Source of the DNA: Alphaproteobacteria bacterium | GTDB taxonomy: Bacteria > Pseudomonadota > Alphaproteobacteria > DSM-16000 > Inquilinaceae | Assembly: GCA_028277405.1 (NCBI GenBank) | Contig: JANQGH010000078.1 | Span: 31,557 to 95,556, forward strand | DNA: 64,000 nt | Direction of reading: 5' to 3' | Shown here: positions 2,855-44,281 of the stretch, piece after piece | Layout of the letters: the number at the start of each line of letters is the position of its first letter | Numbering within the stretch: position 1 is the first letter of the stretch | Translations under genes and position numbers: made by a program | The notes under the pieces: model-generated | Seen by the model: the letters and a program-made list of their open reading frames with translations, nothing else | What the model was told of the DNA's origin: nothing | Databases searched by the model: none

Positions 2855-2882
2855 GAGCCCAATTCAAACAAGGAGGAAGACA

Positions 2883-3893: not shown

Positions 3894-3915
3894 CACTGGA
3901 GGACACATCTGGTGA

Positions 3916-26372: not shown

Positions 26373-29300
26373 TTAGACAAGCAGGAAATCGTCATCGTGG
26401 AGTTCCGCCAGGTTCACGCCGAGCAGCGTGACACTGTCGTCGGCATCGAGGGCGATCACCACATCATCGCCAACCTGGCTCGCGGCCGTCAACACGTCGG
26501 CCCCATCGGCAAACCCGAACGCCGCGATGTCCAGGACATCGTCCGAACCGGCGCCGGCCTGGAAGTCTACAACCGTATCGTTGCCACTGCCGTCTGCGAA
26601 GATGAACAGGTCGTCGCCGACTGCACCGGTCATCCGATCGTCGCCCGCATCGCCGGTGATCGTGTCGTCGCCTTGGGCCGCGACGATAATGTCGGCATTG
26701 GCCGTGCCCACGAGGATGTCCGCGTTCGCCGTGCCCACGACGTCGACGGCACCCGTCGCGTTGTTGCCGAAGATGACGTAGCTTTCTCCGGCATTGCCGA
26801 TGCTGCCTTTGTCCGCCAGAAATGCGCTGACGATCAGGTCATCGAACCCGTCGCCATTTACATCGCCCGCGCCACTCACCGATCGACCGACACGATCGCC
26901 GATGTCAATGCCGTCGAGGCGGAAACCGTTGGTCCCGTCCAGTGTCGCAAGATCGATTGCCGGGTCGAACCCTCCCGCAGCGCCGAACACCACATAGCTT
27001 TCCCCGGCTGTCTCGTTACCATTGGGATCGCCGCGCACGGCGCCGATGATCACATCGTCGAAGCCGTCACCATTGAAATCGCCCGCGCCGCTGACGGACC
27101 AGCCCGCATCATCGACCGGATCAATGCCGTCGAGGCGGAAGCCGTTGGTCCCGTCCAGCGTCGACAGATCGATGTTGGCGGCAAATCCACCAGCGGCGCC
27201 GAAGACCACATAAGCTTCACCGCCTGGACTGGCCTTGTAAGCGCCGATGATGATGTCATCGAAGCCGTCACCGTTGACGTCGCCGGCATCGCTCACCGAC
27301 ACGCCTGAACGGTCGGAGGCATCGATGCCGTCCAGCCGGAAGCCGTTGGTGCCGTCGAGCGTCGACAGATCAAACGAAGCTGCGAAGCCGCCGGCGGCGC
27401 CGAACACCACGTAGCTCTCGCCCGCTTCGCCGTTGCCGCCGGGATCCGCCTGTCGTGCACCGATGATCAGATCGTCGAACCCGTCGCCATTGACGTCGCC
27501 GGCACTGCTGACCGAAACGCCCGAATAATCGTCGGCGTCGATACCGTCGAGCCGAAAGCCGTTACTGCCGTTGAGCGAGGCTAGATCGAGCGCCGGAGCA
27601 AAGCCGCCGGCGGCGCCGAACACCACATAGCTTTCGCCGGTGAAGCCGTTGCTGCCGGCTGCCCCGACGATCACGTCGTCGAACCCGTCTCCATTGATGT
27701 CGCCGGCACCGCTGACCGAATACCCAGAGGCGTCAACGCTATCGATACCGTCGAGCCGGAAGCCATTGGTACCGTCAAGCGACGCCAGATCAAGCGCAGG
27801 CGCAAAACCGCCTGCGGCGCCGAACACCACATAGCTCTCGCCGGCCAACGCGTCGCCGCCAGGGGCAGCGTAGACGGCGCCAATGATCAGATCATCAAAT
27901 CCGTCGCCGTTGACGTCCCCGGCATCGCTCACCGAGACGCCCGAGCGATCGGAAACATCGATGCCTTGCAGGCGAAAACCGTTGGTTCCGTCCAAGGTCG
28001 ACAGGTCAATCGCGTCGGGGAACCCGGCCGCGGCGCCGAATACCACGTAACTCTCGCCGGCTTCGTTGTTGCCGCCGGGGCTGGCGGCAAATGCGCCGAC
28101 GATGACGTCGTCGAACCCGTCACCGTTGATGTCACCCGCGCCGCTGACCGAAAAGCCCGAGCGATCATTGTTGTCAATGCCGTCGAGCCGGAAGCCGTTG
28201 CTGCCGGTCAGGTCGGCAAGCGATATGACGGCAGGGAAATCAATCGTCGCGGTAAGCTCGCTTTCGACAAGCACCGTCGCCTGGCCGAGGGAAAATGCCC
28301 TATAGGTGCCTGTCTCGCCCAGCGGGTCGATAACCGCCGCGCCCTCACCCCAGAGGCCCTCCAGCAGCACCGTGTCGGCGGCATCGCCCTTGATCAGGAT
28401 CGTGTTCGAGGTCGAGGACAGGCCAAGAACATCGAGCCTGTCGAGAACAATCGTGTTGGCCGTCGATCCGCCGAGGTCGATCTTCTCGACGTCGACGAGC
28501 CGGTTGTCGGAAAGAGATGGGGACGGACCAAGCGCATCGACATTGACCGTGTCGATACCCGACCCGAGATCGACCGCGAGGGCCCCATCCGGCCCGATCA
28601 CCGCGACATCGTCGCCGGCACCGCCGCGGAACGCGTCCAGGCCGCCACCGCCGATCATGAGATCATCTCCGAGGCCGCCGACGAAGCTTTCAGCAGCCAC
28701 CGTGCCGATCAGCGTGTCATTCGCGTCGCCGCCGAGGAATGCCACAGTGCCCGTGACGTCGCGGCCAAAGATCACGTAGCTTTCGCCGGCATCTACGGCA
28801 CTACCGGGATCGCCGCCAGGTGCGCCGATGATCAGGTCATCGAACCCGTCGCCATCGATGTCACCGGCGGAACTGACTGAGAAGCCCGCAGCGTCGACGA
28901 GGTCAATACCGTCAAGCCGGATCCCGTTGGTCCCGTCCAAGGCCGACAGATCAAGCGCGGCGCCAAACCCGCCCGCGGCGCCGAACACGACGTAGCTTTC
29001 ACCGGCACCTTCGACACCGCCTGGATCACCTCCGAAGGCGCCGATGATCAAATCATCGAACCCGTCGCCATTGAAGTCGCCGGCGCCGCTGACCGAATGA
29101 CCGGCGTTGTCGCCGTTCGCGATTCCGTCAATCCGGAAGCCATTGCTGCCGTCGAGCGTAGACAGATCGAGTGCCGGTGCAAAACCGCTGCCGGCACCGA
29201 ACACCACATAGCTTTCGCCGGCTGCATCATTTCCACCTGGATCACCTCCGGCGGCGCCGATGATCAGGTCGTCGAAACCATCGCCGTTAACATCGCCGGC

Positions 29301-32300
29301 ATTGCTGACGGAGTTGCCTGAGAGATCGCCTGCATTGATGCCGTCGAGCCGGAAGCCGTTGCTGCCGTCCAAAGTCGACAAATCCAGGAAACTGCCGAAG
29401 CCGCCCGCGGCCCCAAACACCACGTAGCTCTTGCCTGCGTTGGCGTCGCCACCCAGGTCAGCCTGCCGAGCCCCGATAATCAGGTCGTCGAACCCGTCGC
29501 CGTTGACGTCGCCGGCGTCGCTCACGGAAACGCCGGAGTAGTCGCCAGGGTCGACACCGCCTATGCGGAACCCAACAGTGCCGTTCAAACTGCCGAGGCT
29601 GAAGTCAGAAGGAAACGCGTTGGGGCCGCCGAATATCACGTAGCTTTCGCCGGCCTCGGCGTTGCCGGCCGGGTCGGCGCGTGCAGCGCCGATGATAACG
29701 TCATCAAAGCCGTCACCGTTGAAGTCGCCAACACCGCTCACGGAGTATCCCGACACATCGTTGTCGTCAATGCCGTCGAACCGGACCCCATTGGTCCCGT
29801 CCAGCGTCGACAGGTCGAGCACGGGTGCAAAGCCGCCCGCGGCACCGAACACAACATAGGTCTCGCCCGCCCTGTCGCTGCCGCCGGGGTCGCCATATAC
29901 GGCGCCGATGATCAGGTCGCCGAACCCGTCGCCGTTCACATCACCCGCGGAGCTCACGGAAACGCCCGAACGGTCGGACACATCGATGCCGTCCAGCCGA
30001 AAGCCGTTGGTACCATCCAGCGTCGACAGATCGACGGCAGCCGGGAACCCGCCCGCCGCGCCGAACACCACATAGCTCTCGCCGGCCTCGCTATTGCTGT
30101 TGGGATCGGCGAGGACCGCACCGATGATGATATCGTCAAACCCGTCGCCATTGACGTCCCCGGCGCTGCTCACGGACCGGCCTGAGATGTCGGAACCGTC
30201 AATACCATCGAGCCGGAAGCCGTTATTTCCGTCGAGGTCGGCAAGCGATATGACGGTTGGGAAAGCGACGGTCGCAGCCACCTCGCTCTCGACCAGCACG
30301 GTTGCTTGGCCGAGCGAGAATGCGGTGTATGTACCCGTCTCTCCAAGCGGGTCGACAATGTCCGCGCCCTGCGTCCAAAGACCGTCAAGCACGACCGCGT
30401 CACTGGCATCGCCCTTGATCAGAACCGTGTTGGAGGTCGAGGACAGGCCAAGGACGTCAAGCTTGCCGAGAGTCAGCGTATTGGCCGTGGAGCCGCCCAG
30501 GTCGACCTTCTCGACGTCGACGAACAGGGTGCCGGAGAAGGAGGGTGCCGGACCGAGCGCATCGACATTCACCGTGTCGATGCCCGACCCGAGATCGACC
30601 GCAATGGCTCCGTCGGCCCCGATGACCGCAATGTCGTCGCCGGCCCCGCCGCGAAATGCATCAAGGCCACCGCCGCCGACCATGAGGTCATTGCCAAGGC
30701 CGCCGACGAAGCTTTCGGCCGCCACCGTGCCGGTCAGCGTGTCGTCTGCGTCGCCGCCGAGGAACGCCACCGCGCCATTCACGTCGCCGCCAAGGATCAC
30801 GTAGCTTTCGCCGGCGCCTGGACCAGCTTGCAGGGTACCGATGATCAGGTCATCGAAGCCGTCGCCATTGATGTCGCCGGCTCCGTTGACCGAAATGCCC
30901 GATGCTTCGAAGGCATCGACGCCCTCGAGCCTGAAACCGTTGGTCCCGTCCAGTGTCGAAAGATCGAGCACCGGTGCGAAACCACCCAAGGTGCCGAATA
31001 CGACATAGCTTTCACCGGCAAACTCACTGCCGCCCGGATTGCTGCGGGCAGCGCCAATGATCAGGTCATCGACGCCGTCGCCGTTGAAGTCGCCGGCATC
31101 GCTTACCGAGATACCGGCACCATCGCCAGCATCGATACCGTCGAGCCGGAAGCCGTTACTGCCGTCCAACGCCTCAAGATCGAGCGTCGCGGAGAATCCG
31201 GTGCCTCCGAAAACGACATAGGTTTCACCGGCCTCTGCCTTGCCGCCCGGGTCGGCATTTGCGGCGCCGACGATCAGATCGTCGATCCCGTCGCCGTTCA
31301 CGTCGCCCGCGCCACTCACCGAGGCCCCCAAGGCGTCGCCGCCATCAAGAGCATCGATCCGGAAGCCGTTGTCGCCATTAAGGGTCGACAAATCCAAAGC
31401 ACCGCCGAAGCCACCCGCGGCACCAAACACCACGTAGCTGGCGCCGTCCCCTCCGTTGGCAGCGATTGCGCCGACAATCAGATCGTCGAACCCGTCGCCG
31501 TTGATGTCGCCGGCGTTGCTGATCGAAGCGCCTAGGGCGTCGCCGGCGTCAATGCCGTCAATACGGAAGCCATTGCTCCCGTTCAGTGCGCCGAGGTCCA
31601 GAGCGGCGGCAAAGCCTTCCGCGGCACCGAACACCACATAGCTTTCGCCGGCATCCTGGTTGCCACCCGGGTCGCCGCGAAACGCGCTGATGATAACGTC
31701 GTCAAGTCCATCGCCGTTGACGTCTCCGGCGCCGCTGACATTGATGCCTGCGAAGTCGCCGTCGTCGATGCCGTCGAGCCGGAAGCCGTTGCTGCCGTCG
31801 AGCGTGGACAGGTCGAACGCGGGCGCGAAGCCGCCGGCGGCGCCGAACACGACATAGCTCTCGCCGGATGCTCCATTGCCGCCCGCTTCACCGTAAGCCG
31901 CGCCAATGATGACGTCGCCAAATCCATCGCCGTTGACGTCGCCAGCACCACTGACCGCAATGCCCGATAAATTGCCGGGACCGATGCCGTCGAGCCGGAA
32001 ACCGTTGCTGCCGTCAAGGCTCGACGGATCGAAAACGGCAGGGAATCCATCGGCGGTGCCGAACACGATGTAGCTTTCGCCGGCATCCTCGTTGCCGTCC
32101 GGATCGCCTCGAGCTGCGCTGACGATGATGTCGTCGAACCCGTCGCCGTTGAAGTCCCCAGCACTGCTAACGGCCTGACCAAAGACGTCGGTATCGTCAA
32201 TGCCGTCGAGCCGGAAACCGTTGGCGCCAGTCAGGTCGGCAAGCGATATGACGGACGGGAAGCCGACGGTGACGGTAAGCTCGCCCTCAACAAGCACCGT

Positions 32301-35300
32301 GGCCTGGCCGAGGGAGAATGCCTGGTAGGTTCCCGTTTCTCCCATCGGATTGATGACGTCGGCGCCCTGGCCCCAAAAGCCCTTCAGCAAGATCGAGTCG
32401 GCGGCATCGCCCTTGATCAGAACCGTGTTCGACGTGGAGGACAGGTTGAGCAGGTCGAGCTTGCTGAGAGCCAGCGTGTTGGCCGTCGATCCGCTGAGGT
32501 CGATCTTCTCCACGTCGACGAACAGGGCACCGGAAACGAAAGGCGACGGCCCGAGCGCATCGATGTTGACCGTGTCGATGCCCGAACCGAGATCAACCAC
32601 GAGGGCCCCGTCCGGCCCGATCACGGCAATGTCGTCACCGGCCCCACCGCGGAACACATCGAGCCCACCGCCGCCGATCATGAGATCATTGCCGCGGCCA
32701 CCGACAAAGCTCTCCGCCGCCGCCGTGCCGGTCAGCGTGTCGTTCGCGTCGTTGCCGAGATACGTGACCGCGCCGGTCACGTCGCCGCCGAAGATCACAT
32801 AGCTTTCACCGGCGGCGGCATTTGCGAGTGGAGCACCGATGATCAAATCATCGAACCCGTCGCCATTGACATCGCCCGCCGCATTGACCGACGGGCCCGA
32901 GTAATCGGCCGGATCGATTCCGTCGATGCGGAAACCATTGGTCCCGTCCAGCGCCGACAGGTCGAGCGCCGCCGAAAAACCGCCAGCAGCGCCAAACACC
33001 ACATAGGTTTCGCCAGCATCGGCGTTGCCGTTCGGATCGCCGCCGAAGGCGCCGATGATCAGATCGTCGAAACCGTCGCCATTGAAGTCGCCGGCACCGC
33101 TGACCGCAAAACCCGATGTGTCATCAGCATCGATGCCGTCGAGCCGGAAGCCATTGGTTCCGTCCAGCGCCGATAGATCAAAGGTAGGGGCGAAACCGCC
33201 TGCAGCCCCAAAAACGACATAGCTCTCGCCGGCGCCTGCCTCGCCGCCGGGGTCCGCCTCCCGGGCCCCGACAATGAGATCATCGAAACCATCGCCATTG
33301 ACGTCGCCCGCGCTGCTAACGGACACACCTGCATTGTCGTCGGCGTCGACGCCGTCCAGCCGGAAGCCGTTGCTGCCATCCAAGGTCGACAAATCGAAAG
33401 AGCTGCCGAAGGCGTCCGCGCCGCCGAACAAAACATATGCCCCGCCGGCTGCGTTGTTACCGTCAGGATCGATCCCACTGGCGCCAATAACGAGGTCAGC
33501 AAAACCGTCGCCGTTGACGTCCCCCGCCCCGCTGACCGAATAGCCGAAGCTGTCGCCGGCATCGAGACCGGCGATCCGGAACCCATCGTTGCCGTTCAGC
33601 CCCCCTAGATCGATGACGGCAGGGAATCCACCCGCAGCGCCGAACACCACATAGCTTTCGCCGGCAATGTTAAAACCGTCGGGATCAGCACGGCGCGCAC
33701 CGACGATGATGTCGTCAAAGCCATCGCCATTCATGTCGCCAGCGCTGCTGACCGAGAAGCCCGAGATGTCGTCGGTATCGACGCCGTCGAGGCGGAAACC
33801 GTTGCTGCCATCCAGTGTCGCCAGATCGAACGCGGGAGCAAAGCCGCCTGCGGCGCCAAACACCACGTAGCTTTCCCCAGCTCCGTCCTCACCATTCGGA
33901 TCGGCCTCTACAGCGCCAATGATCAGGTCGCTGAAACCGTCACCATTGACGTCGCCCGCTGTGCTCACTCGCCGCCCCGAGAAATCGCCAGCGTCGATAC
34001 CATCGAGCCGGAAGCCGTTCGTTCCATCCAGCGTGGCCAGATCGAGTGTAGCCGAGAATCCGCCGGCGGCGCCGAACACCACATAGCTTTCGCCGGCATA
34101 GGCCTCGCCGCCCGGACTGCCGCGATAGGCGCCGATGAAAATGTCGTCAAAGCCATCGCCGTTGACATCCCCGGCGGTGCTGACAGATCCGCCCGCCACG
34201 TCGCCGCCATCGATGCCGTCTATCCGAAAGCCGTTGGTACCGTCGAGATCGGCGAGGCTGAAGCTGCCCGTGATGGTGACGGTGACGGTTTGGATGTCGG
34301 TTTCCGCGCCGTCGGAGACTTGCAGCGTGTAATCGAGCACCAGCGTTTGCCCGAAACCCAGATAGTCGAACGCCTCAGCCCCGGAATCGAAGTCCCAGGC
34401 GATCGTTCCGGTCGTGGCGGTGCCGTCGATCACGGGGTTGGGCCCCAGATTCAGCATGGCGAGCAGCATGGCGTCGTCCGGCCGCCCGGCACTGGGCGCC
34501 GTTCCGCCTGCTGTCACTGAAAGAACGACCGCATCGACGCTGTCATTAAGGTCGGGGTCGGCGACCGTTAGCGTCCCGCTGGCGGTCAGCCCGGCATCGG
34601 TCTCGTCCAGCGCCACGGACGCGCTGTCGCCCGCCTCAATGGTGATCTCCGGCGCATCGTTGGCGCCGTCAAACTGGAAGTCGTCCTCGTGAAGGTCGGC
34701 GAGCTGGACGTTAAGCAGCGTGACGCTGTCGTCGGCGTCGAGCGCGATGACGACATCGCTGCCAAGCTCCGTCGCCGCCGCCAGCACACCGGCCAGATCC
34801 ACGAAGCCGAAGGCGCCGATTTCCAGTACGTCGTCGGTCCCGACGCCGGCCTGGAAATTCTCGATCGTGTCGTTGCCGCTGCCGTCGACGTAGAGGAACA
34901 GGTCGTTGCCGGCCCCACCATCGAGCGTGTCGTTGTCCGCCCCGCCATCGATGACATCGTCTGCGCTGCCGCTCAGGATGGAGTCATTGCCAGCGCCGCC
35001 ATTGACGACCTGCGTGATGCTGGAGGCGCTGGCGTCGAACACATCGTCGCCATCTCCGAGATTGGTGGTGACCGTGTTCTGGCTAACGCCCGCGGTTTCC
35101 AGGTTGGCGCCGATCGTGACACTGTCGGCGCCATCCCCTGTTGCGATCTCGATATCCTCGATACCGGTGACGGAGGAGGCAACGCCGTCGACACGGCTCG
35201 CAAAGTCGCCGTCATTGTCGACATTGTCGATGACGATGACATTACCCGAACCATCGCCATTGATCACCAGGGTGTCGTCGCCCAATCCGCCATCGATTAC

Positions 35301-38300
35301 GTCAGCGCCGTCGCCGACGGTATAGACGATCGTATCGGCGCCCCCGCCCGCATCGATCACGTCGTTGCCGCCAAGCCCCTCGATGAGATCGGTTCCGTCG
35401 CCCCCGACCAGAGTGTCTCTGTTGGCCGTGCCGGACGATCCACCATCGACATCGCCGACCTGGGACGCAGCCGCGCTGATGGCGCCGTTAAGAGCGGAGC
35501 CGGTGAACTGTTGCTCGGCATTTGAGGCGTCGTCGTTCTCGCCGGCGTCGGCAAGGGCGTCCGCCGCGTCGCCCTGAGCGACGATGGCGACCTTGGCAAT
35601 CTCCGTCAGCAGAGCGTTGTCCGGACTGCTCGTCTCCAGCTCCGAAATCTTCTCATTAGAGGCCGCGATGACGGTCGATGCGTCCTCCGCGGTGTTGGCC
35701 ACCGCCGCCGCGCCGATGCCGGCGTCGACCGCCGCATCGGTGATGAGTGTCTCGACGGTCTGCGGATCGTCCAGCGGCAGGGGGCCGCCTGCGCCGGCCA
35801 GATCGGCCGCCAGGCTGTCGAAAGCGACGTCAATGGCGGTGTCCTCATCGACGGCCCCTTGGCCTGCCCCTTCAACGAGGGCGGCAACCTGAACGACCGT
35901 GTTTTGGACCTGAACCTGCGTGGCAAGGATTTGCGCACCGACCGGATCACCCGCGGCGGCGGCCTCGACGGGATCGAATGTCGACAGGTCGACACCCGAC
36001 GGCAGGTCAAGCGATTGTTCTAGAATGGCTTGCGCCGCCGACGCATCGAGCGCCGCGCCGCTATCGATCAACGCGGCCATCAAGGTCGTGAGGGGCGTCA
36101 AAACCGTCGACCCTTCCGGGGCCCGCAACTGGCCCTTGAAGGCAAGGCCGGTCGATACGTCGACGCCGCCGAACAGGACAAGTGGCCCAGCCCCACCCAC
36201 CAGGCTGAAATCGCCGTCGGCATTGGTTGTGGTGAAGGCCTCGCCGCCGTCGAGAACGCCATTCATGTTGGCATCGGCAAAGACCGTCGCACCTGCGATG
36301 TAACCATCGACCGCCGACCCGATAAGCGCGTCCTCGACGACAACATTCAGCTCATCGGACACGAACTGGCCGCTTGTGTCGGTCGCCGTGACGACGACGG
36401 TGTAGGTGCCGTTGTCTCCGTCCAGCGGCGCTCCGGACAGCCGACCGGTCACACTGTCAAATTGCATCCAGGTTGGCAGCGGATCGCCATTGAGCAGCGT
36501 GGCGGAGAATGTCAGCGTGTCCGACGCGTCTGCATCGGCGAAGGCCGGGCCGGTATCGAGTTCGAAGCCGCCACTTTCCTCGGCAACCGACGGGTCCGGC
36601 AAGGAGGCAATCAGGATCGGCGCATCGTTTTCTCCGGTCACCTCGACCGTCAGGGTCGAAGACGACGGCGCGCCACTGTCGTCGGACATCGTGTAGTCGA
36701 TGGTCACCATGGCGGTATCGCCGACATCGAGCTCGTCGAAGTCCGTGCCCGGATCGAACCGGACCTGGTTGCCATCGATCGTCACGGACCCTGTGGTCAG
36801 GGCCCCTGCCGCGATGCCGGCCACCGACACGCCGTCGATGCTGTCCAGCGAAAAGGTCGCCGGGCCGTCGCCCGCGTCGACATCCGTATCGTTGGCCAGG
36901 ACATCAACGGTCAGGATGGTGTTCTCCGCCGTGCTGTCCGCATCCGATGCCGCGACCGGCGCCTCGTTCACGTTCGTCACCGTGACGGCGATGGTCTGTG
37001 TCGTTGGCGTGACGCCGTCCGTGACCTGAACCTCGACCTCATAGACGTTGTCGGCATCGGCATCGCCAGGCGTTTCGAAGTCAGGCGCATTGACGAAGGA
37101 GAGGTTGCCATCATTGTCGATGGTGAACAGGGCGTCATCGGCCCCGTTGCCGGTGATCGAGAATTCCAGCGGCCCGCCGACGGTGTCGGCATCGGTCGCG
37201 ATCACCTGCAGGACGGTCTGGGTGTTCTCGCCCACCGTAGCGCTGTCGGACGAGCTGATGATGGGCGCGTTGTCGTTCTCGTCCCCCACTGTGACGGTGA
37301 TGGTTTGGGTATCGATATTGAAGCCGTCGCTTGCCTCGACCGTGACTTCGTAAAGGTTGTCGGCGTCGGCATCGGCGGGGGTTTCGAAATCCGGCGCCGT
37401 GTTGAAGGTCAGACCCCCCGTGTCGGCATCGATGCTGAACAGGGCGGCATCCGCCCCGCCGACAATCCTGAAGACCGGCGTCTCGCCATCGGCGTCCTCG
37501 GCCATCACGGTTGTCACCGAGCCTGTGTTCTCGGCCACGGCGATCGACGCCGTTTCGCCGCCGCCATCACTGGTGATGACCGGCGCGTTCGGGCTCGGGA
37601 CCTGGGTGAATGTCACCGCATCGATACGGGCGAACTCCCAGGCATCGCGGGTGCCCTTCAGGGTGATCTCGTCACCCTGTTTCAGCGACAGACCGTCGAT
37701 GACATGGGTTGAGATCGTCGAGCCGTCGCCTCCATTGCCGTTGTTGTTTTGCGTCAGGTCAATCGTCTCGATCAGAACGCCGTTCAGATAGATCTCGATG
37801 GCGCCTTCGCCGTCATTCTCGTCGATGTAGGCAAGCCTGAAATCGTAAAAGCCGTCTTCAGCGCCGAAGACAAAGGAGGCTTCGCCCTCGTCCCGTCTCA
37901 ACCGGATCACCTGGCCGCCGGACGCGGCGTCGACATCGTCTTCCCGATAGTTCCGAAGCGCCATGTCTTCGGCTTCGATCGTAAATGTACCGTCCGCATC
38001 CGGCTGCCAGACCAGCCCGGCGGAGAGTTCGCGATAGCGCACCCAGTTGCCGACGACATTGCCGGTGTCGACGACCGTCAACTGCGCCCCCGGCGGCGGA
38101 ACATCACCGAGGAAGGCGAAGAAATCATCGCGATCGGTTTCGCTGACGCCGCTAACCTCAACATCGATTAGGTAGAACCGATTGCCGTCTTGGTCTTCGA
38201 GAACGAGATATCGCTCCGCGTAGATCCGGACGCCCTCGTGCACGGTCTCGCCGTCCAGCACGATATCCGCCCGTTGGCCGGTTCTATCGTTGCCAATCTC

Positions 38301-38480
38301 GTTTCGGTAGGCATCGCCGGAAAGGCCACCGTCATTGTCCTGAACAGTGACAGCCGCACTGGCACTAACCGGCATCACAAATGCGTCGCCAACATTCAGC
38401 CAGTCATCGTCTGCGGCTAGGAGTTCAGAACCGATAAAGGCGGTGAACTCGTAAGTACGAAGATGCGAGTTGTTCGGCAT
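26373..38480 (-). CDS. Giant (4035 aa) mosaic RTX / cadherin / FG-GAP repeat surface protein, probable type I secretion substrate (adhesin-like)
   Basis: A single uninterrupted 12,108-nt ORF with no N-terminal signal peptide. It has GGxGxD nonapeptide blocks, an acidic composition and a C-terminus ...LHDDDFLLV. The domain layout is detailed in the sub-features below. Confidence 0.9.
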   Translation of the reverse strand: MPNNSHLRTYEFTAFIGSELLAADDDWLNVGDAFVMPVSASAAVTVQDNDGGLSGDAYRNEIGNDRTGQRADIVLDGETVHEGVRIYAERYLVLEDQDGNRFYLIDVEVSGVSETDRDDFFAFLGDVPPPGAQLTVVDTGNVVGNWVRYRELSAGLVWQPDADGTFTIEAEDMALRNYREDDVDAASGGQVIRLRRDEGEASFVFGAEDGFYDFRLAYIDENDGEGAIEIYLNGVLIETIDLTQNNNGNGGDGSTISTHVIDGLSLKQGDEITLKGTRDAWEFARIDAVTFTQVPSPNAPVITSDGGGETASIAVAENTGSVTTVMAEDADGETPVFRIVGGADAALFSIDADTGGLTFNTAPDFETPADADADNLYEVTVEASDGFNIDTQTITVTVGDENDNAPIISSSDSATVGENTQTVLQVIATDADTVGGPLEFSITGNGADDALFTIDNDGNLSFVNAPDFETPGDADADNVYEVEVQVTDGVTPTTQTIAVTVTNVNEAPVAASDADSTAENTILTVDVLANDTDVDAGDGPATFSLDSIDGVSVAGIAAGALTTGSVTIDGNQVRFDPGTDFDELDVGDTAMVTIDYTMSDDSGAPSSSTLTVEVTGENDAPILIASLPDPSVAEESGGFELDTGPAFADADASDTLTFSATLLNGDPLPTWMQFDSVTGRLSGAPLDGDNGTYTVVVTATDTSGQFVSDELNVVVEDALIGSAVDGYIAGATVFADANMNGVLDGGEAFTTTNADGDFSLVGGAGPLVLFGGVDVSTGLAFKGQLRAPEGSTVLTPLTTLMAALIDSGAALDASAAQAILEQSLDLPSGVDLSTFDPVEAAAAGDPVGAQILATQVQVQNTVVQVAALVEGAGQGAVDEDTAIDVAFDSLAADLAGAGGPLPLDDPQTVETLITDAAVDAGIGAAAVANTAEDASTVIAASNEKISELETSSPDNALLTEIAKVAIVAQGDAADALADAGENDDASNAEQQFTGSALNGAISAAASQVGDVDGGSSGTANRDTLVGGDGTDLIEGLGGNDVIDAGGGADTIVYTVGDGADVIDGGLGDDTLVINGDGSGNVIVIDNVDNDGDFASRVDGVASSVTGIEDIEIATGDGADSVTIGANLETAGVSQNTVTTNLGDGDDVFDASASSITQVVNGGAGNDSILSGSADDVIDGGADNDTLDGGAGNDLFLYVDGSGNDTIENFQAGVGTDDVLEIGAFGFVDLAGVLAAATELGSDVVIALDADDSVTLLNVQLADLHEDDFQFDGANDAPEITIEAGDSASVALDETDAGLTASGTLTVADPDLNDSVDAVVLSVTAGGTAPSAGRPDDAMLLAMLNLGPNPVIDGTATTGTIAWDFDSGAEAFDYLGFGQTLVLDYTLQVSDGAETDIQTVTVTITGSFSLADLDGTNGFRIDGIDGGDVAGGSVSTAGDVNGDGFDDIFIGAYRGSPGGEAYAGESYVVFGAAGGFSATLDLATLDGTNGFRLDGIDAGDFSGRRVSTAGDVNGDGFSDLIIGAVEADPNGEDGAGESYVVFGAAGGFAPAFDLATLDGSNGFRLDGVDTDDISGFSVSSAGDMNGDGFDDIIVGARRADPDGFNIAGESYVVFGAAGGFPAVIDLGGLNGNDGFRIAGLDAGDSFGYSVSGAGDVNGDGFADLVIGASGIDPDGNNAAGGAYVLFGGADAFGSSFDLSTLDGSNGFRLDGVDADDNAGVSVSSAGDVNGDGFDDLIVGAREADPGGEAGAGESYVVFGAAGGFAPTFDLSALDGTNGFRLDGIDADDTSGFAVSGAGDFNGDGFDDLIIGAFGGDPNGNADAGETYVVFGAAGGFSAALDLSALDGTNGFRIDGIDPADYSGPSVNAAGDVNGDGFDDLIIGAPLANAAAGESYVIFGGDVTGAVTYLGNDANDTLTGTAAAESFVGGRGNDLMIGGGGLDVFRGGAGDDIAVIGPDGALVVDLGSGIDTVNIDALGPSPFVSGALFVDVEKIDLSGSTANTLALSKLDLLNLSSTSNTVLIKGDAADSILLKGFWGQGADVINPMGETGTYQAFSLGQATVLVEGELTVTVGFPSVISLADLTGANGFRLDGIDDTDVFGQAVSSAGDFNGDGFDDIIVSAARGDPDGNEDAGESYIVFGTADGFPAVFDPSSLDGSNGFRLDGIGPGNLSGIAVSGAGDVNGDGFGDVIIGAAYGEAGGNGASGESYVVFGAAGGFAPAFDLSTLDGSNGFRLDGIDDGDFAGINVSGAGDVNGDGLDDVIISAFRGDPGGNQDAGESYVVFGAAEGFAAALDLGALNGSNGFRIDGIDAGDALGASISNAGDINGDGFDDLIVGAIAANGGDGASYVVFGAAGGFGGALDLSTLNGDNGFRIDALDGGDALGASVSGAGDVNGDGIDDLIVGAANADPGGKAEAGETYVVFGGTGFSATLDLEALDGSNGFRLDGIDAGDGAGISVSDAGDFNGDGVDDLIIGAARSNPGGSEFAGESYVVFGTLGGFAPVLDLSTLDGTNGFRLEGVDAFEASGISVNGAGDINGDGFDDLIIGTLQAGPGAGESYVILGGDVNGAVAFLGGDADDTLTGTVAAESFVGGLGNDLMVGGGGLDAFRGGAGDDIAVIGADGAIAVDLGSGIDTVNVDALGPAPSFSGTLFVDVEKVDLGGSTANTLTLGKLDVLGLSSTSNTVLIKGDASDAVVLDGLWTQGADIVDPLGETGTYTAFSLGQATVLVESEVAATVAFPTVISLADLDGNNGFRLDGIDGSDISGRSVSSAGDVNGDGFDDIIIGAVLADPNSNSEAGESYVVFGAAGGFPAAVDLSTLDGTNGFRLDGIDVSDRSGVSVSSAGDVNGDGFGDLIIGAVYGDPGGSDRAGETYVVFGAAGGFAPVLDLSTLDGTNGVRFDGIDDNDVSGYSVSGVGDFNGDGFDDVIIGAARADPAGNAEAGESYVIFGGPNAFPSDFSLGSLNGTVGFRIGGVDPGDYSGVSVSDAGDVNGDGFDDLIIGARQADLGGDANAGKSYVVFGAAGGFGSFLDLSTLDGSNGFRLDGINAGDLSGNSVSNAGDVNGDGFDDLIIGAAGGDPGGNDAAGESYVVFGAGSGFAPALDLSTLDGSNGFRIDGIANGDNAGHSVSGAGDFNGDGFDDLIIGAFGGDPGGVEGAGESYVVFGAAGGFGAALDLSALDGTNGIRLDGIDLVDAAGFSVSSAGDIDGDGFDDLIIGAPGGDPGSAVDAGESYVIFGRDVTGTVAFLGGDANDTLIGTVAAESFVGGLGDDLMIGGGGLDAFRGGAGDDVAVIGPDGALAVDLGSGIDTVNVDALGPSPSLSDNRLVDVEKIDLGGSTANTIVLDRLDVLGLSSTSNTILIKGDAADTVLLEGLWGEGAAVIDPLGETGTYRAFSLGQATVLVESELTATIDFPAVISLADLTGSNGFRLDGIDNNDRSGFSVSGAGDINGDGFDDVIVGAFAASPGGNNEAGESYVVFGAAAGFPDAIDLSTLDGTNGFRLQGIDVSDRSGVSVSDAGDVNGDGFDDLIIGAVYAAPGGDALAGESYVVFGAAGGFAPALDLASLDGTNGFRLDGIDSVDASGYSVSGAGDINGDGFDDVIVGAAGSNGFTGESYVVFGAAGGFAPALDLASLNGSNGFRLDGIDADDYSGVSVSSAGDVNGDGFDDLIIGARQADPGGNGEAGESYVVFGAAGGFAASFDLSTLDGTNGFRLDGIDASDRSGVSVSDAGDVNGDGFDDIIIGAYKASPGGEAYVVFGAAGGFAANIDLSTLDGTNGFRLDGIDPVDDAGWSVSGAGDFNGDGFDDVIIGAVRGDPNGNETAGESYVVFGAAGGFDPAIDLATLDGTNGFRLDGIDIGDRVGRSVSGAGDVNGDGFDDLIVSAFLADKGSIGNAGESYVIFGNNATGAVDVVGTANADILVGTANADIIVAAQGDDTITGDAGDDRMTGAVGDDLFIFADGSGNDTVVDFQAGAGSDDVLDIAAFGFADGADVLTAASQVGDDVVIALDADDSVTLLGVNLAELHDDDFLLV
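26376..26618 (-). other. C-terminal module of the giant protein (putative T1SS secretion/folding domain)
   Basis: GDDLFIFADGSGNDTVVDFQAGAGSDDVLDIAAFGFADGADVLTAASQVGDDVVIALDADDSVTLLGVNLAELHDDDFLLV. Position and composition fit an RTX-protein C-terminal region. Confidence 0.6.
26619..26768 (-). repeat. Terminal RTX nonapeptide block
   Basis: GTANADILVGTANADIIVAAQGDDTITGDAGDDRMTGAV contains GGxGxD-like calcium-binding repeats. Confidence 0.75.
26769..28226 (-). repeat. FG-GAP array 4: seven blades (predicted beta-propeller)
   Basis: Seven units of about 62-70 aa, each with ...NGFRLDGID..D..G.SVS.AGD(V/I/F)NGDGFDD(L/V/I)I(I/V)(G/S)A...GESYVVFGAAGGF...DLS.LDG. Confidence 0.85.
28227..28766 (-). 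repeat. Inter-propeller linker module 3 (RTX nonapeptides plus conserved beta-rich domain)
   Basis: GRDVTGTVAFLGGDANDTLIGTVAAESFVGGLGDDLMIGGGGLDAFRGGAGDD...VDVEKIDLGGSTANTIVLDRLDVLGLSSTSNTILIKGDAADTVLLEGLW...YRAFSLGQATVLVESELTATIDFPAV. Confidence 0.8.
28767..30251 (-). repeat. FG-GAP array 3: seven blades
   Basis: Seven GD(V/F/I)(N/D)GDGF(D/G)D loops were counted, with the same blade consensus as array 4. Confidence 0.85.
30252..30791 (-). repeat. Inter-propeller linker module 2
   Basis: GGDVNGAVAFLGGDADDTLTGTVAAESFVGGLGNDLMVGGGGLDAFRGGAGDD...VDVEKVDLGGSTANTLTLGKLDVLGLSSTSNTVLIKGDASDAVVLDGLW...YTAFSLGQATVLVESEVAATVAFPTV. Confidence 0.8.
30792..32249 (-). repeat. FG-GAP array 2: seven blades
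   Basis: Seven GD(F/V/I)NGDG(F/L/I/V)(D/G)D loops were counted. Confidence 0.85.
32250..32790 (-). repeat. Inter-propeller linker module 1
   Basis: GGDVTGAVTYLGNDANDTLTGTAAAESFVGGRGNDLMIGGGGLDVFRGGAGDD...VDVEKIDLSGSTANTLALSKLDLLNLSSTSNTVLIKGDAADSILLKGFW...YQAFSLGQATVLVEGELTVTVGFPSV. Confidence 0.8.
32791..34268 (-). repeat. FG-GAP array 1: seven blades
   Basis: Seven GD(V/M/F)NGDGF(D/S/A)D loops were counted. The array starts at ...ITGSFSLADLDGTNGFRIDG. Confidence 0.85.
34269..34670 (-). other. VCBS/Ig-like beta domain between the internal C-terminal-like module and propeller 1
   Basis: DGANDAPEITIEAGDSASVALDETDAGLTASGTLTVADPDLNDSVD...IAWDFDSGAEAFDYLGFGQTLVLDYTLQVSDGAETDIQTVTVTITG has a pattern typical of VCBS-type repeats in large RTX adhesins. 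Confidence 0.55.
34671..34910 (-). repeat. Internal copy of the C-terminal module (aa 1191-1270)
   Basis: GNDLFLYVDGSGNDTIENFQAGVGTDDVLEIGAFGFVDLAGVLAAATELGSDVVIALDADDSVTLLNVQLADLHEDDFQF aligns without gaps to the true C-terminus. My hand alignment gives 51 identities in 73 positions. Confidence 0.85.
34911..35435 (-). repeat. Internal RTX nonapeptide block (aa ~1016-1190)
   Basis: GTANRDTLVGGDGTDLIEGLGGNDVIDAGGGADTIVYTVGDGADVIDGGLGDDTLVINGDGSGN...NGGAGNDSILSGSADDVIDGGADNDTLDGGA. Confidence 0.8.
35436..36332 (-). other. Ala/Asp/Val-rich non-repetitive stalk region (aa ~717-1015)
   Basis: It starts DALIGSAVDGYIAGATVFADANMNGVLDGGEAFTTTNADGDFSL.... A long Ala-rich, probably helical stretch follows (...AAQAILEQSLDLPSG...AALVEGAGQGAVDEDTAIDVAFDSLAADLAGAG...). 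No family was recognised. Confidence 0.4.
36333..36629 (-). other. Dystroglycan-type cadherin-like (Cadg / He_PIG-like) Ig domain
   Basis: ...FADADASDTLTFSATLLNGDPLPTWMQFDSVTGRLSGAPLDGDNGTYTVVVTATD... matches the characteristic LP.W..FD..TG.LSGTP...D.G.Y...V.A.D pattern. Confidence 0.7.
36630..36965 (-). other. VCBS/bacterial cadherin-like domain
   Basis: NEAPVAASDADSTAENTILTVDVLANDTDVDAGDGPATFSLDSIDG...VRFDPGTDFDELDVGDTAMVTIDYTMSDDSGAPSSSTLTVEVTGEND. Confidence 0.6.
36966..37586 (-). repeat. Two tandem cadherin-like repeats
   Basis: Each unit of about 105 aa follows ...AENT..V..V.A.DAD....F.I.G.GADDALF.ID...G.L.F...PDFE.P.DADADN.YEV.V...DG....TQTI.VTV.(D/N)(E/V)N(D/E)(N)AP. Confidence 0.75.
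37605..37994 (-). other. CBM6/CBM35-like (galactose-binding-like) putative lectin domain
   Basis: FTIEAEDMALRNYREDDVDAASGGQVIRL...EASFVFGAEDGFYDFRLAYIDENDGEGAIEIYLNGVLIETIDL...LKQGDEITLKGTRDAWEFARIDAVTF matches the IEAED...ASGG...G.Y.....Y......I.....G........G.........L..G...I.........D.I.F pattern of CBM6-type modules. Confidence 0.5.
37995..38480 (-). other. N-terminal ~160 aa of the giant protein, no recognisable family
   Basis: MPNNSHLRTYEFTAFIGSELLAADDDWLNVGDAFVMPVSASAAVTVQDNDGGLSGDAYRNEIGNDRTGQRADIVLDGETVHEGVRIYAERYLVLEDQDGNRFYLIDVEVSG... has no signal peptide or TM segment. Confidence 0.4.
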
Positions 38481-38837: not shown

Positions 38838-39617
38838 TCAGCCAAGGCTCAGAGAAACCTCGCCCAGGCCAGTCATGGTCACGACGATCTCCCCAGGGTC
38901 ACCATGATACCAGATCGGACAGTGCGTGCCGCAAAGGACGATTTGGCCGGCCTGAAGACGCAGCCCGCGTTTCGTCAAGTGACGCGCAAGCCAGATGACG
39001 GCGTCTATCGGATCCTGCGGTGCCGCGCCCGTTACCTGCAACTCCACCTTTCCGTTGACGCTGACCTCAGTGCGCAGACTTGCCGGATTCAGGTCCTGCG
39101 GCGCCATGCCCGGTCCCCCGATCACGGCACCCTCGTTGGAGATGTTCTGTGCGACGACATCTGCGATATCGATCGAGGGCATATCGATGTCGCGCATATC
39201 CAGAAGTTCGATCGCCGGAACAAAGCGATCGATCGCGGCGATCACGTCCTGCCGGTCGGCAGGCCCGTCGGAGACCTCAAGGTCGGTCTTCATGATCGCG
39301 GCGATCTCCGGCTCGAACGCGAACTGCCTGAACGTGGCTGCCGTGAGCCGCGCGGGACTTTGCCGGGTCTGGCTTTTGAATACGCGTCCGCTGAGAGGCT
39401 CTTCCAACGCGAACTTCTCCAGAAGATGCGGCGCGTTCGCGGCGATCTTCCAGCCGGCAACCGCCTGCCGATCAGCACATGCGGTAAGCTGTTCCGCCAA
39501 CGCGTCCTGAAGGCGATACGCCTCGTCAAGCGTACGCGCGGGATCGGTGGCATACGGGGCGAACGCGGCATGTGCCATCACATCCGCCATAATCTTCTGC
39601 ACTATAGCGTCGGTCAT
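38838..39617 (-). CDS. 2-keto-4-pentenoate hydratase / 2-oxohept-3-enedioate hydratase-family (FAH-fold) enzyme
   Basis: MhpD/HpcG-like pattern: ...AYRLQDAL...GWKIA...FEPEIAAIM...VPAIELLD...VAQNISNEGAVIGGP...PIDAVIWLARHL...GLRLQAGQIVLCGT.... The ATG at 39617 overlaps the upstream stop (ATGA); the tracked start at 39647 is 10 codons longer. Confidence 0.8.
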   Translation of the reverse strand: MTDAIVQKIMADVMAHAAFAPYATDPARTLDEAYRLQDALAEQLTACADRQAVAGWKIAANAPHLLEKFALEEPLSGRVFKSQTRQSPARLTAATFRQFAFEPEIAAIMKTDLEVSDGPADRQDVIAAIDRFVPAIELLDMRDIDMPSIDIADVVAQNISNEGAVIGGPGMAPQDLNPASLRTEVSVNGKVELQVTGAAPQDPIDAVIWLARHLTKRGLRLQAGQIVLCGTHCPIWYHGDPGEIVVTMTGLGEVSLSLG

Positions 39618-40393
39618 CGAAGCAACTTTCTGAAGCGCGGCATCCAATCGAGACCCGCTGGCGTTTCGGTTTTGGGGTTGTATTCGGCAGAGACCTCGCC
39701 GTCGTAGCCGGTGGCCCGCAAGGCGTCGAGCGCGGCGGCGAAATCAATGTCTCCAGTGCCCGGTTCGTGCCGGCCGGGCGCATCGGCGAACTGAACATGG
39801 CCGATGCGCGGACCCGCCTCGGCGATTGCCGCGCAGAGATCCGGTTCGGTGATGGCCATGTGATAGAGGTCGAACTGAAGGAAGAGGTTGGGATGACCGA
39901 TGTCGGACAACACGCCCAACCCCGCCGCCAGGCCGGAGATGAAAAAGCCCGGCACATCGCCTCGGTTTACCGGCTCGACCATAACGCGCACGCCAATCTC
40001 CTGCATCACGTCGGCGGCATGGATCAGGTTCTGCCGCAAAACCCGGGCGCAGTCCGCCGGATCGGCATCGGCCGGGGGGCGCCCGGCAAGCACATTGACC
40101 TTCCTCACCCCCAGTACTTCCACGTTGCGCGCGCAATCGGCGACGGCGGCGCGGTAGGCCTGTTCCTGACCGGGCAGCGACGCGAGCCCGACCGCATCGC
40201 CGGGTCCGCGCGGCACGTTGATCAACGCAATCGGCATTGCGGTCCTGCGGGACTCCGCGGCGAGCGCGGCGATGTCACCCGGGTCGGGAAACTGAATTTC
40301 CACACCGTCAAACCCCGCCGCCCGCGCCGCCGCCAGGCGGTCGACGACCGGGACCTCGGTAAACATCATCGAGATGTTTGAAATCAGCCGCAT
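39614..40393 (-). CDS. Hydroxypyruvate isomerase / 2-oxo-tetronate isomerase-family (xylose-isomerase-like TIM barrel)
   Basis: The ATG at 40393 gives MRLISNISMMFTEVPVVDRLAAARAAGFDGVEIQFP..., the Hyi-family N-terminus. Also present: ...LQFDLYHMAI... and ...IGHVQFADAPGRHEPGTG.... Confidence 0.85.
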   Translation of the reverse strand: MRLISNISMMFTEVPVVDRLAAARAAGFDGVEIQFPDPGDIAALAAESRRTAMPIALINVPRGPGDAVGLASLPGQEQAYRAAVADCARNVEVLGVRKVNVLAGRPPADADPADCARVLRQNLIHAADVMQEIGVRVMVEPVNRGDVPGFFISGLAAGLGVLSDIGHPNLFLQFDLYHMAITEPDLCAAIAEAGPRIGHVQFADAPGRHEPGTGDIDFAAALDALRATGYDGEVSAEYNPKTETPAGLDWMPRFRKLLR

Positions 40394-44201: not shown

Positions 44202-44202
44202 C

Positions 44203-44246: not shown

Positions 44247-44281
44247 GGACGGCTTCTTACGTTCATGCCAAGGGTGCTTCG

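What the first reader, a model, noticed from the sequence alone, without database searches (positions are those of the whole stretch)
34671..34910. The extreme C-terminal module is present a second time in the middle of the protein (aa 1191-1270)
The last ~80 residues are GDDLFIFADGSGNDTVVDFQAGAGSDDVLDIAAFGFADGADVLTAASQVGDDVVIALDADDSVTLLGVNLAELHDDDFLLV. They align without gaps to aa 1191-1270: GNDLFLYVDGSGNDTIENFQAGVGTDDVLEIGAFGFVDLAGVLAAATELGSDVVIALDADDSVTLLNVQLADLHEDDFQF. My hand alignment gives 51 of 73 positions identical. In both places the module directly follows an RTX nonapeptide block. So the first 1270 aa look like a complete RTX/cadherin adhesin with its own secretion-type C-terminus, to which the four-propeller array plus a second C-terminus has been appended. 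This is a visible gene-fusion or module-capture event. It raises the question of what an internal T1SS-type C-terminal domain does, for example act as a folding nucleus, a processing site or a cryptic secretion signal.
Basis: seen in the sequence. Interest (0 to 1): 0.65.

Follow-up and report, generated by a model that had tools for sequence, protein, structure and literature searches.

The report
Internal copy of RTX end-cap module
A giant, calcium-binding secreted surface protein carries a second, internal copy of the 80-residue module that ends it; the module is the folding "cap" of a calcium-binding beta-roll, and internal copies are a known and common arrangement rather than a new mechanism.

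Summary
In the 4035-aa ORF (window 26373-38480, minus strand), aa 1191-1270 align without gaps to aa 3955-4034. Identity is 55/80 residues and 180/240 bases, against a maximum of 22/80 in 20,000 composition-matched shuffles. The similarity stops sharply at both module edges.

The module is not only a secretion tag. It forms the last beta-roll turns plus the C-terminal cap of an RTX beta-roll. An AlphaFold2 model has pLDDT 95.6, and its best structural match is the C-terminal beta-roll of family I.3 lipases (TM 0.83). CyaA block V and the AlgE R-modules also match.

The family is large (4816 representative clusters). Among the 146 best hits with a full module, 81% carry it at the extreme C-terminus and 44% also or only carry it internally. 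Internal copies are therefore common.

The internal copy here is of the terminal subtype (LHxDDFxF), and both copies are under purifying selection (dN/dS 0.20). Stand-alone propeller-RTX-cap proteins exist. No stand-alone 1270-aa homologue was found.

The fusion or cassette-joining origin is plausible. The most likely present role is as a cap and folding nucleus for the internal RTX block.

This is a new member of a known kind, of modest interest.

The parts
26373..38480 (-). Giant ORF: 4035 aa, about 399 kDa, pI 4.05, no Cys. An RTX, cadherin and FG-GAP multi-domain protein.
37551..38480 (-). N-terminal domain, aa 1-310. No Pfam family. It is rare and heads other, shorter proteins in Paracoccaceae and other alphaproteobacterial MAGs.
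36321..37550 (-). Cadherin x2, Cadherin_4/Big_9 and He_PIG Ig-like domains, aa ~311-720.
35451..36320 (-). Un-named Ala-rich region, aa ~721-1010. Homologues occur in metagenome loci L011 and L012.
34911..35450 (-). Internal RTX nonapeptide block, aa ~1011-1190.
   Evidence: AF2 beta-roll
34671..34910 (-). Internal copy of the cap module, aa 1191-1270 (the finding). It forms the last beta-roll turns plus the C-cap and is of the terminal subtype.
34260..34670 (-). VCBS/cadherin-like Ig domain, aa 1271-1407, starting with the G-x-NDAP linker immediately after the cap.
32784..34259 (-). FG-GAP beta-propeller 1 (7 blades), aa 1408-1899.
32247..32783 (-). Inter-propeller linker 1, aa 1900-2078: RTX repeats plus a different, un-named ~100-aa domain ('capX').
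30786..32246 (-). FG-GAP beta-propeller 2, aa 2079-2565.
30249..30785 (-). Inter-propeller linker 2, aa 2566-2744. 77% identical to linker 1.
28761..30248 (-). FG-GAP beta-propeller 3, aa 2745-3240.
28224..28760 (-). Inter-propeller linker 3, aa 3241-3419.
26763..28223 (-). FG-GAP beta-propeller 4, aa 3420-3906.
26619..26762 (-). Terminal short RTX block, aa 3907-3954.
26376..26618 (-). C-terminal copy of the cap module, aa 3955-4035, ending ...HDDDFLLV just before the stop codon. Presumed T1SS signal region.

Best explanation
The 80-residue module is the C-terminal capping unit of an RTX beta-roll. It supplies the last roll turns, a short helix and closing strands. It is homologous to the C-terminal end of family I.3 lipases and serralysins, to CyaA block V and to the AlgE R-modules.

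In this protein it occurs twice because there are two independently capped beta-rolls of this type. One closes the long internal RTX block (aa ~1011-1190). The other closes the short terminal RTX block (aa 3907-3954).

Only the terminal copy lies at the free C-terminus, ending in Asp plus hydrophobic residues (DDDFLLV), so it can also act as the type I secretion signal. The internal copy most likely acts as the Ca2+-dependent folding nucleus, or cap, for the internal beta-roll. As the polypeptide leaves the cell C-terminus first, that roll would then serve as a further folding ratchet and rigid joint.

As to origin, the internal copy is of the terminal subtype and is fused without a spacer to the start of a VCBS-like domain. 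It most likely became internal when a [VCBS domain + propeller-RTX-cap] cassette was joined in frame behind an RTX-capped adhesin. The join could have been a gene fusion or a cassette recombination. The event is old (dS ~0.9), and both copies have since been kept by purifying selection.

Shown here: the duplication, the fold and its homologies, the family-wide positions of the module, the subtype of the internal copy, and the selection on both copies. Inferred: the folding-nucleus role, secretion by a T1SS, and the order of events.
For: - Duplication and sharp boundaries.
- Sequence homology of both copies to C-terminal regions of solved RTX proteins. The terminal copy matches lipase 2z8x 495-614/617, PrtC 325-448/462 and CyaA block V 5cvw. 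The internal copy also matches AlgE6 R1 2ml1.
- NCBIfam places the module at the C-terminal ends of the PueAB, serralysin and SMc04171 models, but internally (positions 95-210 of 459) in EglC.
- AF2 model of aa 1131-1271: pLDDT 95.6, pTM 0.90, showing a beta-roll followed by helix and strands. Foldseek hits: 2z8x TMq 0.83, LipA 2qua 0.73, AlgE6 R1-R3 0.67-0.70, CyaA block V 0.61-0.64.
- Family survey: 4816 representative clusters with E<=1e-3. Among the 146 best with a full module, 118 have a terminal copy, 64 an internal copy and 36 both.
- The terminal consensus ends ...LHxDDFxF, with 0-3 residues after it.
- Subtype test: the internal copy scores +26.4 on the terminal-versus-internal log-odds scale. 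The terminal set averages +39.5 and the internal set -45.6.
- Selection: dN/dS 0.20 and dS 0.91, against dS 0.65-0.69 for the three inter-propeller linkers.
- Stand-alone homologues of the last unit: P0201, P0200 and P0150.
- Junction to the G-x-NDAP linker.
- Protein-level T1SS-substrate traits: no Cys, pI 4.05, RTX repeats.
- Literature: a C-cap is needed for Ca2+-induced beta-roll folding, and in serralysins the signal lies in the last ~20 residues of the capping domain (PMC6891781). CyaA folds from C- to N-terminus starting at the block V cap (PMC9120197). AlgE enzymes carry 1-4 R-modules after each A-module (PMC4444821). Proteases end in Asp plus three hydrophobic residues (PMC2642768).
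Against: - No T1SS ABC, MFP or OMP genes lie in the 64-kb window, so secretion by a T1SS is inferred from the protein alone.
- No orthologue with the same architecture, and no stand-alone 1270-aa homologue, was found. The fusion cannot be dated or polarised.
- The three other RTX blocks in this protein, in the inter-propeller linkers, are followed by a different domain. This cap type is therefore not the only solution used here.
- The terminal-versus-internal subtype test used hits retrieved with a profile built from these two copies. This favours sequences that resemble them.
- The folding role of the internal copy was not tested experimentally.
Confidence: 0.65

Rival explanations
1. The internal copy arose by intragenic duplication or gene conversion of the protein's own terminal module, not by fusion of two separate genes. 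Its present function would be the same, as a structural cap.
For: - The internal copy's single closest relative is its own terminal copy (68%, against 66% for the best foreign terminal copy).
- In other proteins, internal copies are 96-99% identical to their own terminal copy (P0138, P0170, P0132). This shows that duplication of the terminal cassette is a recurrent route.
- Same-codon identity is slightly above expectation (34 observed against 24.4 +/- 3.6).
Against: - The units in front of the two copies are unrelated. One is a long RTX block after cadherin domains and the other a short RTX block after a propeller. Upstream identity is only 25% aa, so this is not a simple tandem duplication.
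- The terminal copy is as close, or closer, to terminal copies of other proteins (68-71%).
Confidence: 0.2
2. The internal copy is a working cryptic secretion or processing element. Cleavage near aa 1270 would expose ...DDFQF as a new C-terminus. Alternatively the T1SS ABC transporter would re-engage the internal copy as a relay signal, giving two products or aiding export of a 400-kDa substrate.
For: - The internal copy keeps every hallmark of terminal copies, including LHEDDFQF, and is under purifying selection.
- A paper title in the reference list of PMC3034196 (Sebo & Ladant 1993; I did not read the paper) says that CyaA repeat sequences can be recognised as alternative carboxy-proximal signals by the HlyA translocator.
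Against: - The conserved end residues are modelled as part of the folded cap, so structural constraint alone explains their conservation.
- The motif is followed directly by the next domain, with no spacer or recognisable cleavage site.
- Extreme C-terminal motifs are described as features of the free end (PMC2642768).
- Internal copies are widespread in the family, and most of them do not retain the terminal hallmarks.
Confidence: 0.07
3. The internal copy is a neutral relic of a fusion with no present function.
For: The fusion-type junction and the terminal-type sequence.
Against: - dN/dS is 0.20 at dS ~0.9, and first and second codon positions are much better conserved than third positions.
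- The AF2 model shows an intact capped roll at pLDDT 95.6.
- An uncapped beta-roll is reported not to fold (PMC6891781).
Confidence: 0.05
4. The internal copy is an assembly artefact: a chimeric contig joining two RTX genes through the shared module.
For: The giant protein is absent as an exact sequence from the large protein collection. Repeat-rich genes are prone to misassembly.
Against: - The two copies share only 75% nt identity, with no long exact stretch, so they would not be collapsed or bridged by an assembler.
- A chimera formed through the repeat would leave one copy at the join, not two copies 8.3 kb apart.
- The frame is continuous over 12.1 kb, and composition is uniform across the two halves (GC 63-64%, GC3 75-78%).
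Confidence: 0.03

Closest known systems
C-terminal beta-roll plus C-cap of family I.3 lipases (Pseudomonas sp. MIS38 lipase 2z8x, Serratia LipA 2qua) and serralysin proteases (PrtC, AprA)
   Same: The fold is the same: RTX beta-roll turns closed by a C-terminal cap that ends the protein. Foldseek gives TMq 0.83 to 2z8x. Sequence hits align to the last ~120 residues of these enzymes. The terminal copy ends in Asp plus hydrophobic residues, like the proteases (PMC2642768).
   Different: Here the unit also occurs internally, 2765 residues from the C-terminus. The passengers are adhesin-type domains and propellers, not an enzyme. Pfam PF08548 does not cover the module.
R-modules of Azotobacter vinelandii AlgE mannuronan C-5 epimerases (2ml1, 2ml2, 2ml3, 2agm)
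   Same: These are self-contained units of RTX repeats plus a C-terminal part. They occur both internally and at the C-terminus of one secreted protein, with 1-4 per A-module (PMC4444821). The internal copy matches AlgE6 R1 by sequence (E = 1e-5) and by fold (TMq 0.67-0.70).
   Different: There is no A-module here. The R-modules are only distant relatives (24-28% identity). [quoted passage not shown]
CyaA RTX block V with its C-terminal capping structure (5cvw/5cxl), and the multi-block CyaA RTX domain
   Same: The module aligns to the block V capping segment. The proposed mechanism is the one described for CyaA: a cap-nucleated, Ca2+-driven, C-to-N folding ratchet (PMC9120197, PMC6891781).
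   Different: In CyaA the five RTX blocks are contiguous and folding is templated from block to block. Here the two capped rolls are separated by four propellers, so the internal roll needs its own cap.
Stand-alone FG-GAP propeller-RTX-cap proteins (P0201 781 aa, P0200 853 aa, P0150 523 aa) and the 4 x [propeller-RTX-cap] protein P0138
   Same: The propeller, RTX and cap order is the same, at 47-55% identity to the last unit of the giant protein. Their terminal modules are among the closest relatives of both copies. P0138 repeats the cassette four times, so three caps are internal.
   Different: In P0138 every propeller is followed by this cap type, and the copies are 97-99% identical. In the giant protein the inter-propeller positions carry a different domain, and the only internal copy precedes the propeller array.

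Membership tests
RTX protein / type I secretion substrate | Tandem Gly/Asp-rich nonapeptide (GGxGxD) Ca2+-binding repeats | tested here: met
   Pfam PF00353, E = 3.8e-12, 4 stretches. 19 GGxGxD-like motifs. The AF2 model shows a beta-roll.
RTX protein / type I secretion substrate | Uncleaved signal at the extreme C-terminus (in the protease/lipase class, an acidic residue followed by hydrophobic residues) | tested here: met
   The protein ends ...HDDDFLLV. 118 of 146 family members end 0-3 residues after DDFxF. The motif definition is from PMC2642768. Signal activity itself cannot be tested with these tools.
RTX protein / type I secretion substrate | Cognate ABC transporter, membrane fusion protein and outer-membrane factor, mostly located within a single rtx locus with the substrate gene (PMC3034196) | tested here: not met
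   30 flanking ORFs across the 64-kb window were scanned with Pfam. They encode only TRAP and ABC uptake systems, regulators and metabolic enzymes. The genes may lie elsewhere in the genome, and the rest of the genome is not available.
RTX protein / type I secretion substrate | Acidic, Cys-poor polypeptide | tested here: met
   0 Cys and pI 4.05. That this is typical of the class rests on my own knowledge.
Capped RTX beta-roll unit (serralysin/lipase C-terminal domain; AlgE R-module-like) | Beta-roll closed by a C-terminal cap of helix plus strands, forming an autonomous fold | tested here: met
   AF2 pLDDT 95.6. Foldseek TMq 0.83 to 2z8x and 0.67-0.70 to AlgE6 R1-R3.
Capped RTX beta-roll unit (serralysin/lipase C-terminal domain; AlgE R-module-like) | Significant sequence similarity to the C-terminal regions of solved members | tested here: met
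   Against the terminal copy: lipase 8e-8, PrtC 5e-7, CyaA block V 1.7e-9. Against the internal copy: lipase 1.4e-7, PrtC 2.4e-6, AlgE6 R1 1.1e-5.
Pfam Peptidase_M10_C (PF08548) / HCBP_related (PF06594) | Match above the Pfam gathering score over the module | tested here: not met
   Neither family matches either 141-aa RTX+cap segment at E<=1. The only PF08548 hit is sub-threshold (19.7 bits against a cut-off of 20.7) and lies on the RTX part of inter-propeller linker 1.
NCBIfam T1SS C-terminal target domain models (e.g. the VC_A0849 subclass) | Match to a curated domain model of a T1SS C-terminal target | tested here: not met
   The NCBIfam scan at E<=0.1 returned only partial matches to full-length families (PueAB, EglC, serralysin, SMc04171, RTX_toxin) and no C-terminal target domain model. 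That such a model exists in the library is my recollection.
LapA/MpIBP-type RTX adhesin | N-terminal retention module with a periplasmic protease site, a long array of extender Ig-like repeats, and C-terminal RTX plus signal | tested here: inconclusive
   Cadherin and Ig-like domains and the C-terminal RTX plus signal are present. The N-terminal 310 aa match no Pfam or NCBIfam family. No specific retention-module test was available.

The most novel reading that the evidence does not exclude
The internal, terminal-type module is a functional second secretion element. It would either be exposed by proteolysis at ~aa 1270, so that one gene yields two separately handled T1SS-type products. Or it would act as a relay site that the T1SS ABC transporter re-engages during export of a 400-kDa substrate.
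Probability: 0.06. Interest if true: 0.75.

Novelty: new member of a known kind. Interest (0 to 1): 0.3.

Why it matters
The finding shows how giant RTX surface proteins are assembled. The building block is a [passenger domain - RTX - cap] cassette that can be stacked. When this happens, a module that usually ends the protein becomes an internal cap.

The survey also gave a practical by-product. This cap family is large (about 4800 representative clusters) and has no Pfam or NCBIfam domain model. Its terminal and internal copies can be told apart by sequence: H74, D76 and D77 are present in 78-96% of terminal copies and in only 11-50% of internal copies. This could help annotate true T1SS C-termini and recognise fused or truncated gene models.

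For the biology of secretion it adds nothing unexpected. Internally capped beta-rolls are already known from the AlgE epimerases and CyaA.

Tried and rejected
- Searching with aa 1-1271 was swamped by multi-cadherin proteins, with at most 40% coverage. It said nothing about stand-alone homologues.
- An exact look-up of the giant protein found nothing, so the source genome could not be identified directly. Relatives of the N-terminal domain point to Paracoccaceae and other alphaproteobacterial MAGs.
- GTDB loci sharing the N-terminal domain (L001-L008) encode shorter proteins (744-1973 aa) with other C-termini, and none has this module. The L007 reading frame was clearly wrong and L008 looks frameshifted, so both were ignored.
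- A search across the junction (aa 1131-1420) returned only proteins of about 510 aa or less. None had the cap-to-VCBS junction. P0287 covers 92% of the query but has a different segment in place of the cap.
- A metagenome scan for the junction found nothing. A scan for aa 721-1010 found two distant loci.
- I tested whether the inter-propeller linkers carry a diverged copy of the same cap. hhalign aligns only the RTX part, so this was rejected.
- A compositional anomaly between the two halves, as a sign of foreign origin, was not found.
- The low-complexity explanation was rejected by the shuffle test.
- The assembly-chimera explanation was rejected on the geometry of the two copies and their 75% nt identity.
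Full report
**Observation**

The window holds one 12.1-kb ORF on the minus strand (26373-38480), encoding 4035 aa.

Aligned without gaps to aa 3955-4034 (window 26379-26618), it gives 55/80 identical residues and 180/240 identical bases. In 20,000 composition-preserving shuffles the identity averaged 8.8 +/- 2.7, with a maximum of 22. The BLASTP self-hit has E = 1e-35, and there is no further copy in the window.

Similarity is confined to the module. The 48 residues upstream are 25% identical, which is only the general level between RTX repeats. At the DNA level identity is 53% upstream, 75% inside and 32% downstream.

**Anatomy of the protein**

Pfam finds the following:
- 28 FG-GAP repeats
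- two cadherin domains
- Cadherin_4/Big_9
- He_PIG
- RTX repeats

Motif positions show four 7-bladed propellers, at aa 1408-1899, 2079-2565, 2745-3240 and 3420-3906. They are separated by three 179-aa linkers that are 77-80% identical to one another.

The linkers contain RTX repeats followed by a different, un-named ~100-aa domain. A profile-profile comparison aligns only their RTX part to the module studied here.

The protein has no Cys, a pI of 4.05 and a mass of ~399 kDa. Thirty flanking ORFs encode TRAP and ABC uptake systems, regulators and metabolic enzymes. No T1SS component lies in the window.

**What the module is**

No Pfam family covers it. NCBIfam gives only partial matches: to the C-terminal ends of the PueAB, serralysin and SMc04171 models, and to an internal stretch (95-210 of 459) of the EglC glycanase model.

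Against the sequences of solved structures, the terminal copy plus its RTX block matches:
- CyaA block V with its cap (5cvw, E = 1.7e-9)
- the last 120 residues of the Pseudomonas MIS38 lipase (495-614 of 617)
- PrtC (325-448 of 462)

The internal copy matches the same lipase and protease ends, and also the AlgE6 R1 module.

An AlphaFold2 model of aa 1131-1271, built on a 36-sequence alignment, has pLDDT 95.6 and pTM 0.90. It shows beta-roll strands followed by a helix and closing strands. Foldseek against the PDB places it on:
- the C-terminal beta-roll of family I.3 lipases (2z8x, TMq 0.83; LipA 2qua, 0.73)
- AlgE6 R1-R3 (0.67-0.70)
- CyaA block V (0.61-0.64)

The module is therefore the end of a beta-roll plus its C-cap. 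According to Baumann's review, in serralysins this C-terminal domain "caps the RTX domain" and holds the secretion signal in its last ~20 residues. The same review reports that C-terminal protection of the roll is needed for Ca2+-induced folding (PMC6891781). [quoted passage not shown]

**How common the module is, and where it sits**

A profile built from the two copies finds 4816 representative clusters with E<=1e-3 and 862 with E<=1e-10.

I re-mapped full-length copies on the 150 best proteins. Of the 146 with at least one full-length copy:
- 118 have a copy within 8 residues of the C-terminus
- 64 have at least one internal copy
- 36 have both
- 28 have only internal copies (some of these may be truncated gene calls)

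Arrays reach 15 tandem copies (P0121). The ranking favours multi-copy proteins, so these fractions are not population estimates. They do show that internal copies are ordinary.

Terminal copies end ...LHxDDFxF plus 0-3 residues. Terminal and internal copies differ systematically:

| Position | Terminal copies | Internal copies |
|---|---|---|
| H74 | 78% | 11% |
| D76 | 86% | 34% |
| D77 | 96% | 50% |

On a log-odds scale built from these two sets, the giant's internal copy scores +26.4. Terminal copies average +39.5 +/- 17.7 and internal copies -45.6 +/- 28.1, and only 2 of 150 internal copies score higher. The internal copy here is therefore of the terminal subtype.

One caveat applies: the hits were retrieved with a profile built from these two copies.

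**Origin**

The terminal copy is as similar to terminal copies of unrelated proteins (68-71%) as it is to the internal copy (68%). The internal copy's nearest relatives are its own partner (68%) and foreign terminal copies (66%, 61%...). The 69% identity thus reflects strong family conservation, not recency.

For the pair, dS is 0.91 and dN/dS is 0.20. The three linkers have dS of 0.65-0.69. Same-codon identity is only slightly above expectation, at 34 observed against 24.4 +/- 3.6. The split is therefore old, probably older than the amplification of the propeller units. Both copies are under purifying selection.

Directly after ...DDFQF comes DGANDAP. This is the G-x-NDAP linker that starts a VCBS/cadherin-like domain found in tandem arrays elsewhere (P0280, P0283). 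There is no spacer.

Stand-alone proteins with the propeller-RTX-cap order exist:
- P0201: 781 aa, starts at the propeller start, 7 FG-GAP repeats
- P0200: 853 aa, 48% identical over giant aa 3248-4032
- P0150: 523 aa, 55% identical over giant aa 3642-4034

Proteins sharing the N-terminal domain are 744-1973 aa long and end otherwise. One of them (L003, Silicimonas MAG, 1973 aa) ends in RTX plus another cap type. A metagenome fragment homologous to aa 725-1168 ends ~170 residues later in RTX plus a cap.

I found no stand-alone 1270-aa homologue ending in DDFQF, and no protein sharing the cap-to-VCBS junction. In other proteins, internal copies are 96-99% identical to their own terminal copy (P0138, P0170, P0132). 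This shows that duplication of the terminal cassette is a recurrent way for this module to become internal.

Here the units in front of the two copies are unrelated. An in-frame join of two different RTX-capped units therefore fits better than a simple tandem duplication, although the latter cannot be excluded.

**Mechanism**

Inferred from the established behaviour of the families cited: the protein is exported C-terminus first by a T1SS that recognises the terminal copy. Outside the cell, Ca2+ folds the terminal capped roll, then the propellers and linker rolls. When the internal capped roll emerges, its own cap nucleates folding of the 180-residue RTX block upstream of it. This gives a further ratchet step and a rigid joint between the propeller array and the cadherin stalk.

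The conserved LHEDDFQF end is modelled as ordered. Structural constraint is therefore enough to explain why it is retained internally.

A role as a cryptic signal or processing site is not excluded, but nothing seen here supports it.

**Comparison, novelty and verdict**

Internally placed capped RTX units are known from the AlgE epimerases, which have 1-4 R-modules per A-module (PMC4444821), and from the multi-block CyaA RTX domain. The database survey here shows the same for this cap family, including a 4 x [propeller-RTX-cap] protein (P0138).

The case is a new member of a known kind. The 'internal secretion domain' puzzle largely dissolves once the module is recognised as a beta-roll cap. 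Interest is modest (0.3).

Noticed in passing
window 32247-32783, 30249-30785, 28224-28760 (minus strand; aa 1900-2078, 2566-2744, 3241-3419): Three 179-aa inter-propeller linkers are 77-80% identical. Each has RTX repeats followed by a ~100-aa domain (…VDVEKIDL…LIKGDAAD…GETGTY.AFSLGQATVLVE…). That domain matches no Pfam family and is not homologous to the cap module beyond the RTX part. It may be a second, undescribed kind of beta-roll cap.
   Followed up: partly
window 37551-38480 (minus strand; aa 1-310): The N-terminal 310-aa domain has no Pfam or NCBIfam match. It has only 9 relatives in the 5.8-billion-protein collection and 8 clear relatives (49-63% identity) among the GTDB species genomes, all Paracoccaceae, other alphaproteobacterial or unclassified Pseudomonadota MAGs; two Halomonas loci match only partly (29% identity). 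There it heads shorter proteins (744-1973 aa) with quite different C-terminal parts.
   Followed up: partly
window 35451-36320 (minus strand; aa 721-1010): An Ala-rich ~290-aa region lies between the Ig-like domains and the internal RTX block. It has no family match apart from a weak CarboxypepD_reg hint. Distant homologues (33-44% identity) occur in two metagenome loci, L011 and L012.
   Followed up: partly
database proteins P0121-P0270: The cap family has about 4800 representative clusters but no Pfam or NCBIfam domain model. Terminal and internal copies differ at H74, D76 and D77, so a simple classifier could flag true T1SS C-termini, truncated gene calls and fusions.
   Followed up: partly
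P0121 (2555 aa) and P0138 (4067 aa): P0121 has 15 tandem copies of the module at an exact 153-aa period and no terminal copy. P0138 has four [FG-GAP propeller-RTX-cap] cassettes at a 609-aa period, with caps 97-99% identical to one another, which indicates very recent cassette amplification.
   Followed up: partly
whole window, 1-64000: No type I secretion genes lie near the giant gene. The neighbourhood holds TRAP transporters (DctP/DctM at 1562-3893 and 43149-46086), several ABC uptake systems, a GH116-like glycosidase (5158-7809), a sulfatase (54422-56728), dihydroxy-acid dehydratase (40492-42204) and an MlrC-like peptidase (59007-60443).
   Followed up: yes
window 25044-25805 (-) and 38904-39707 (+): The ORFs immediately flanking the giant gene (253 aa and 267 aa) have no Pfam match. 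It is unclear whether they are real genes.
   Followed up: no
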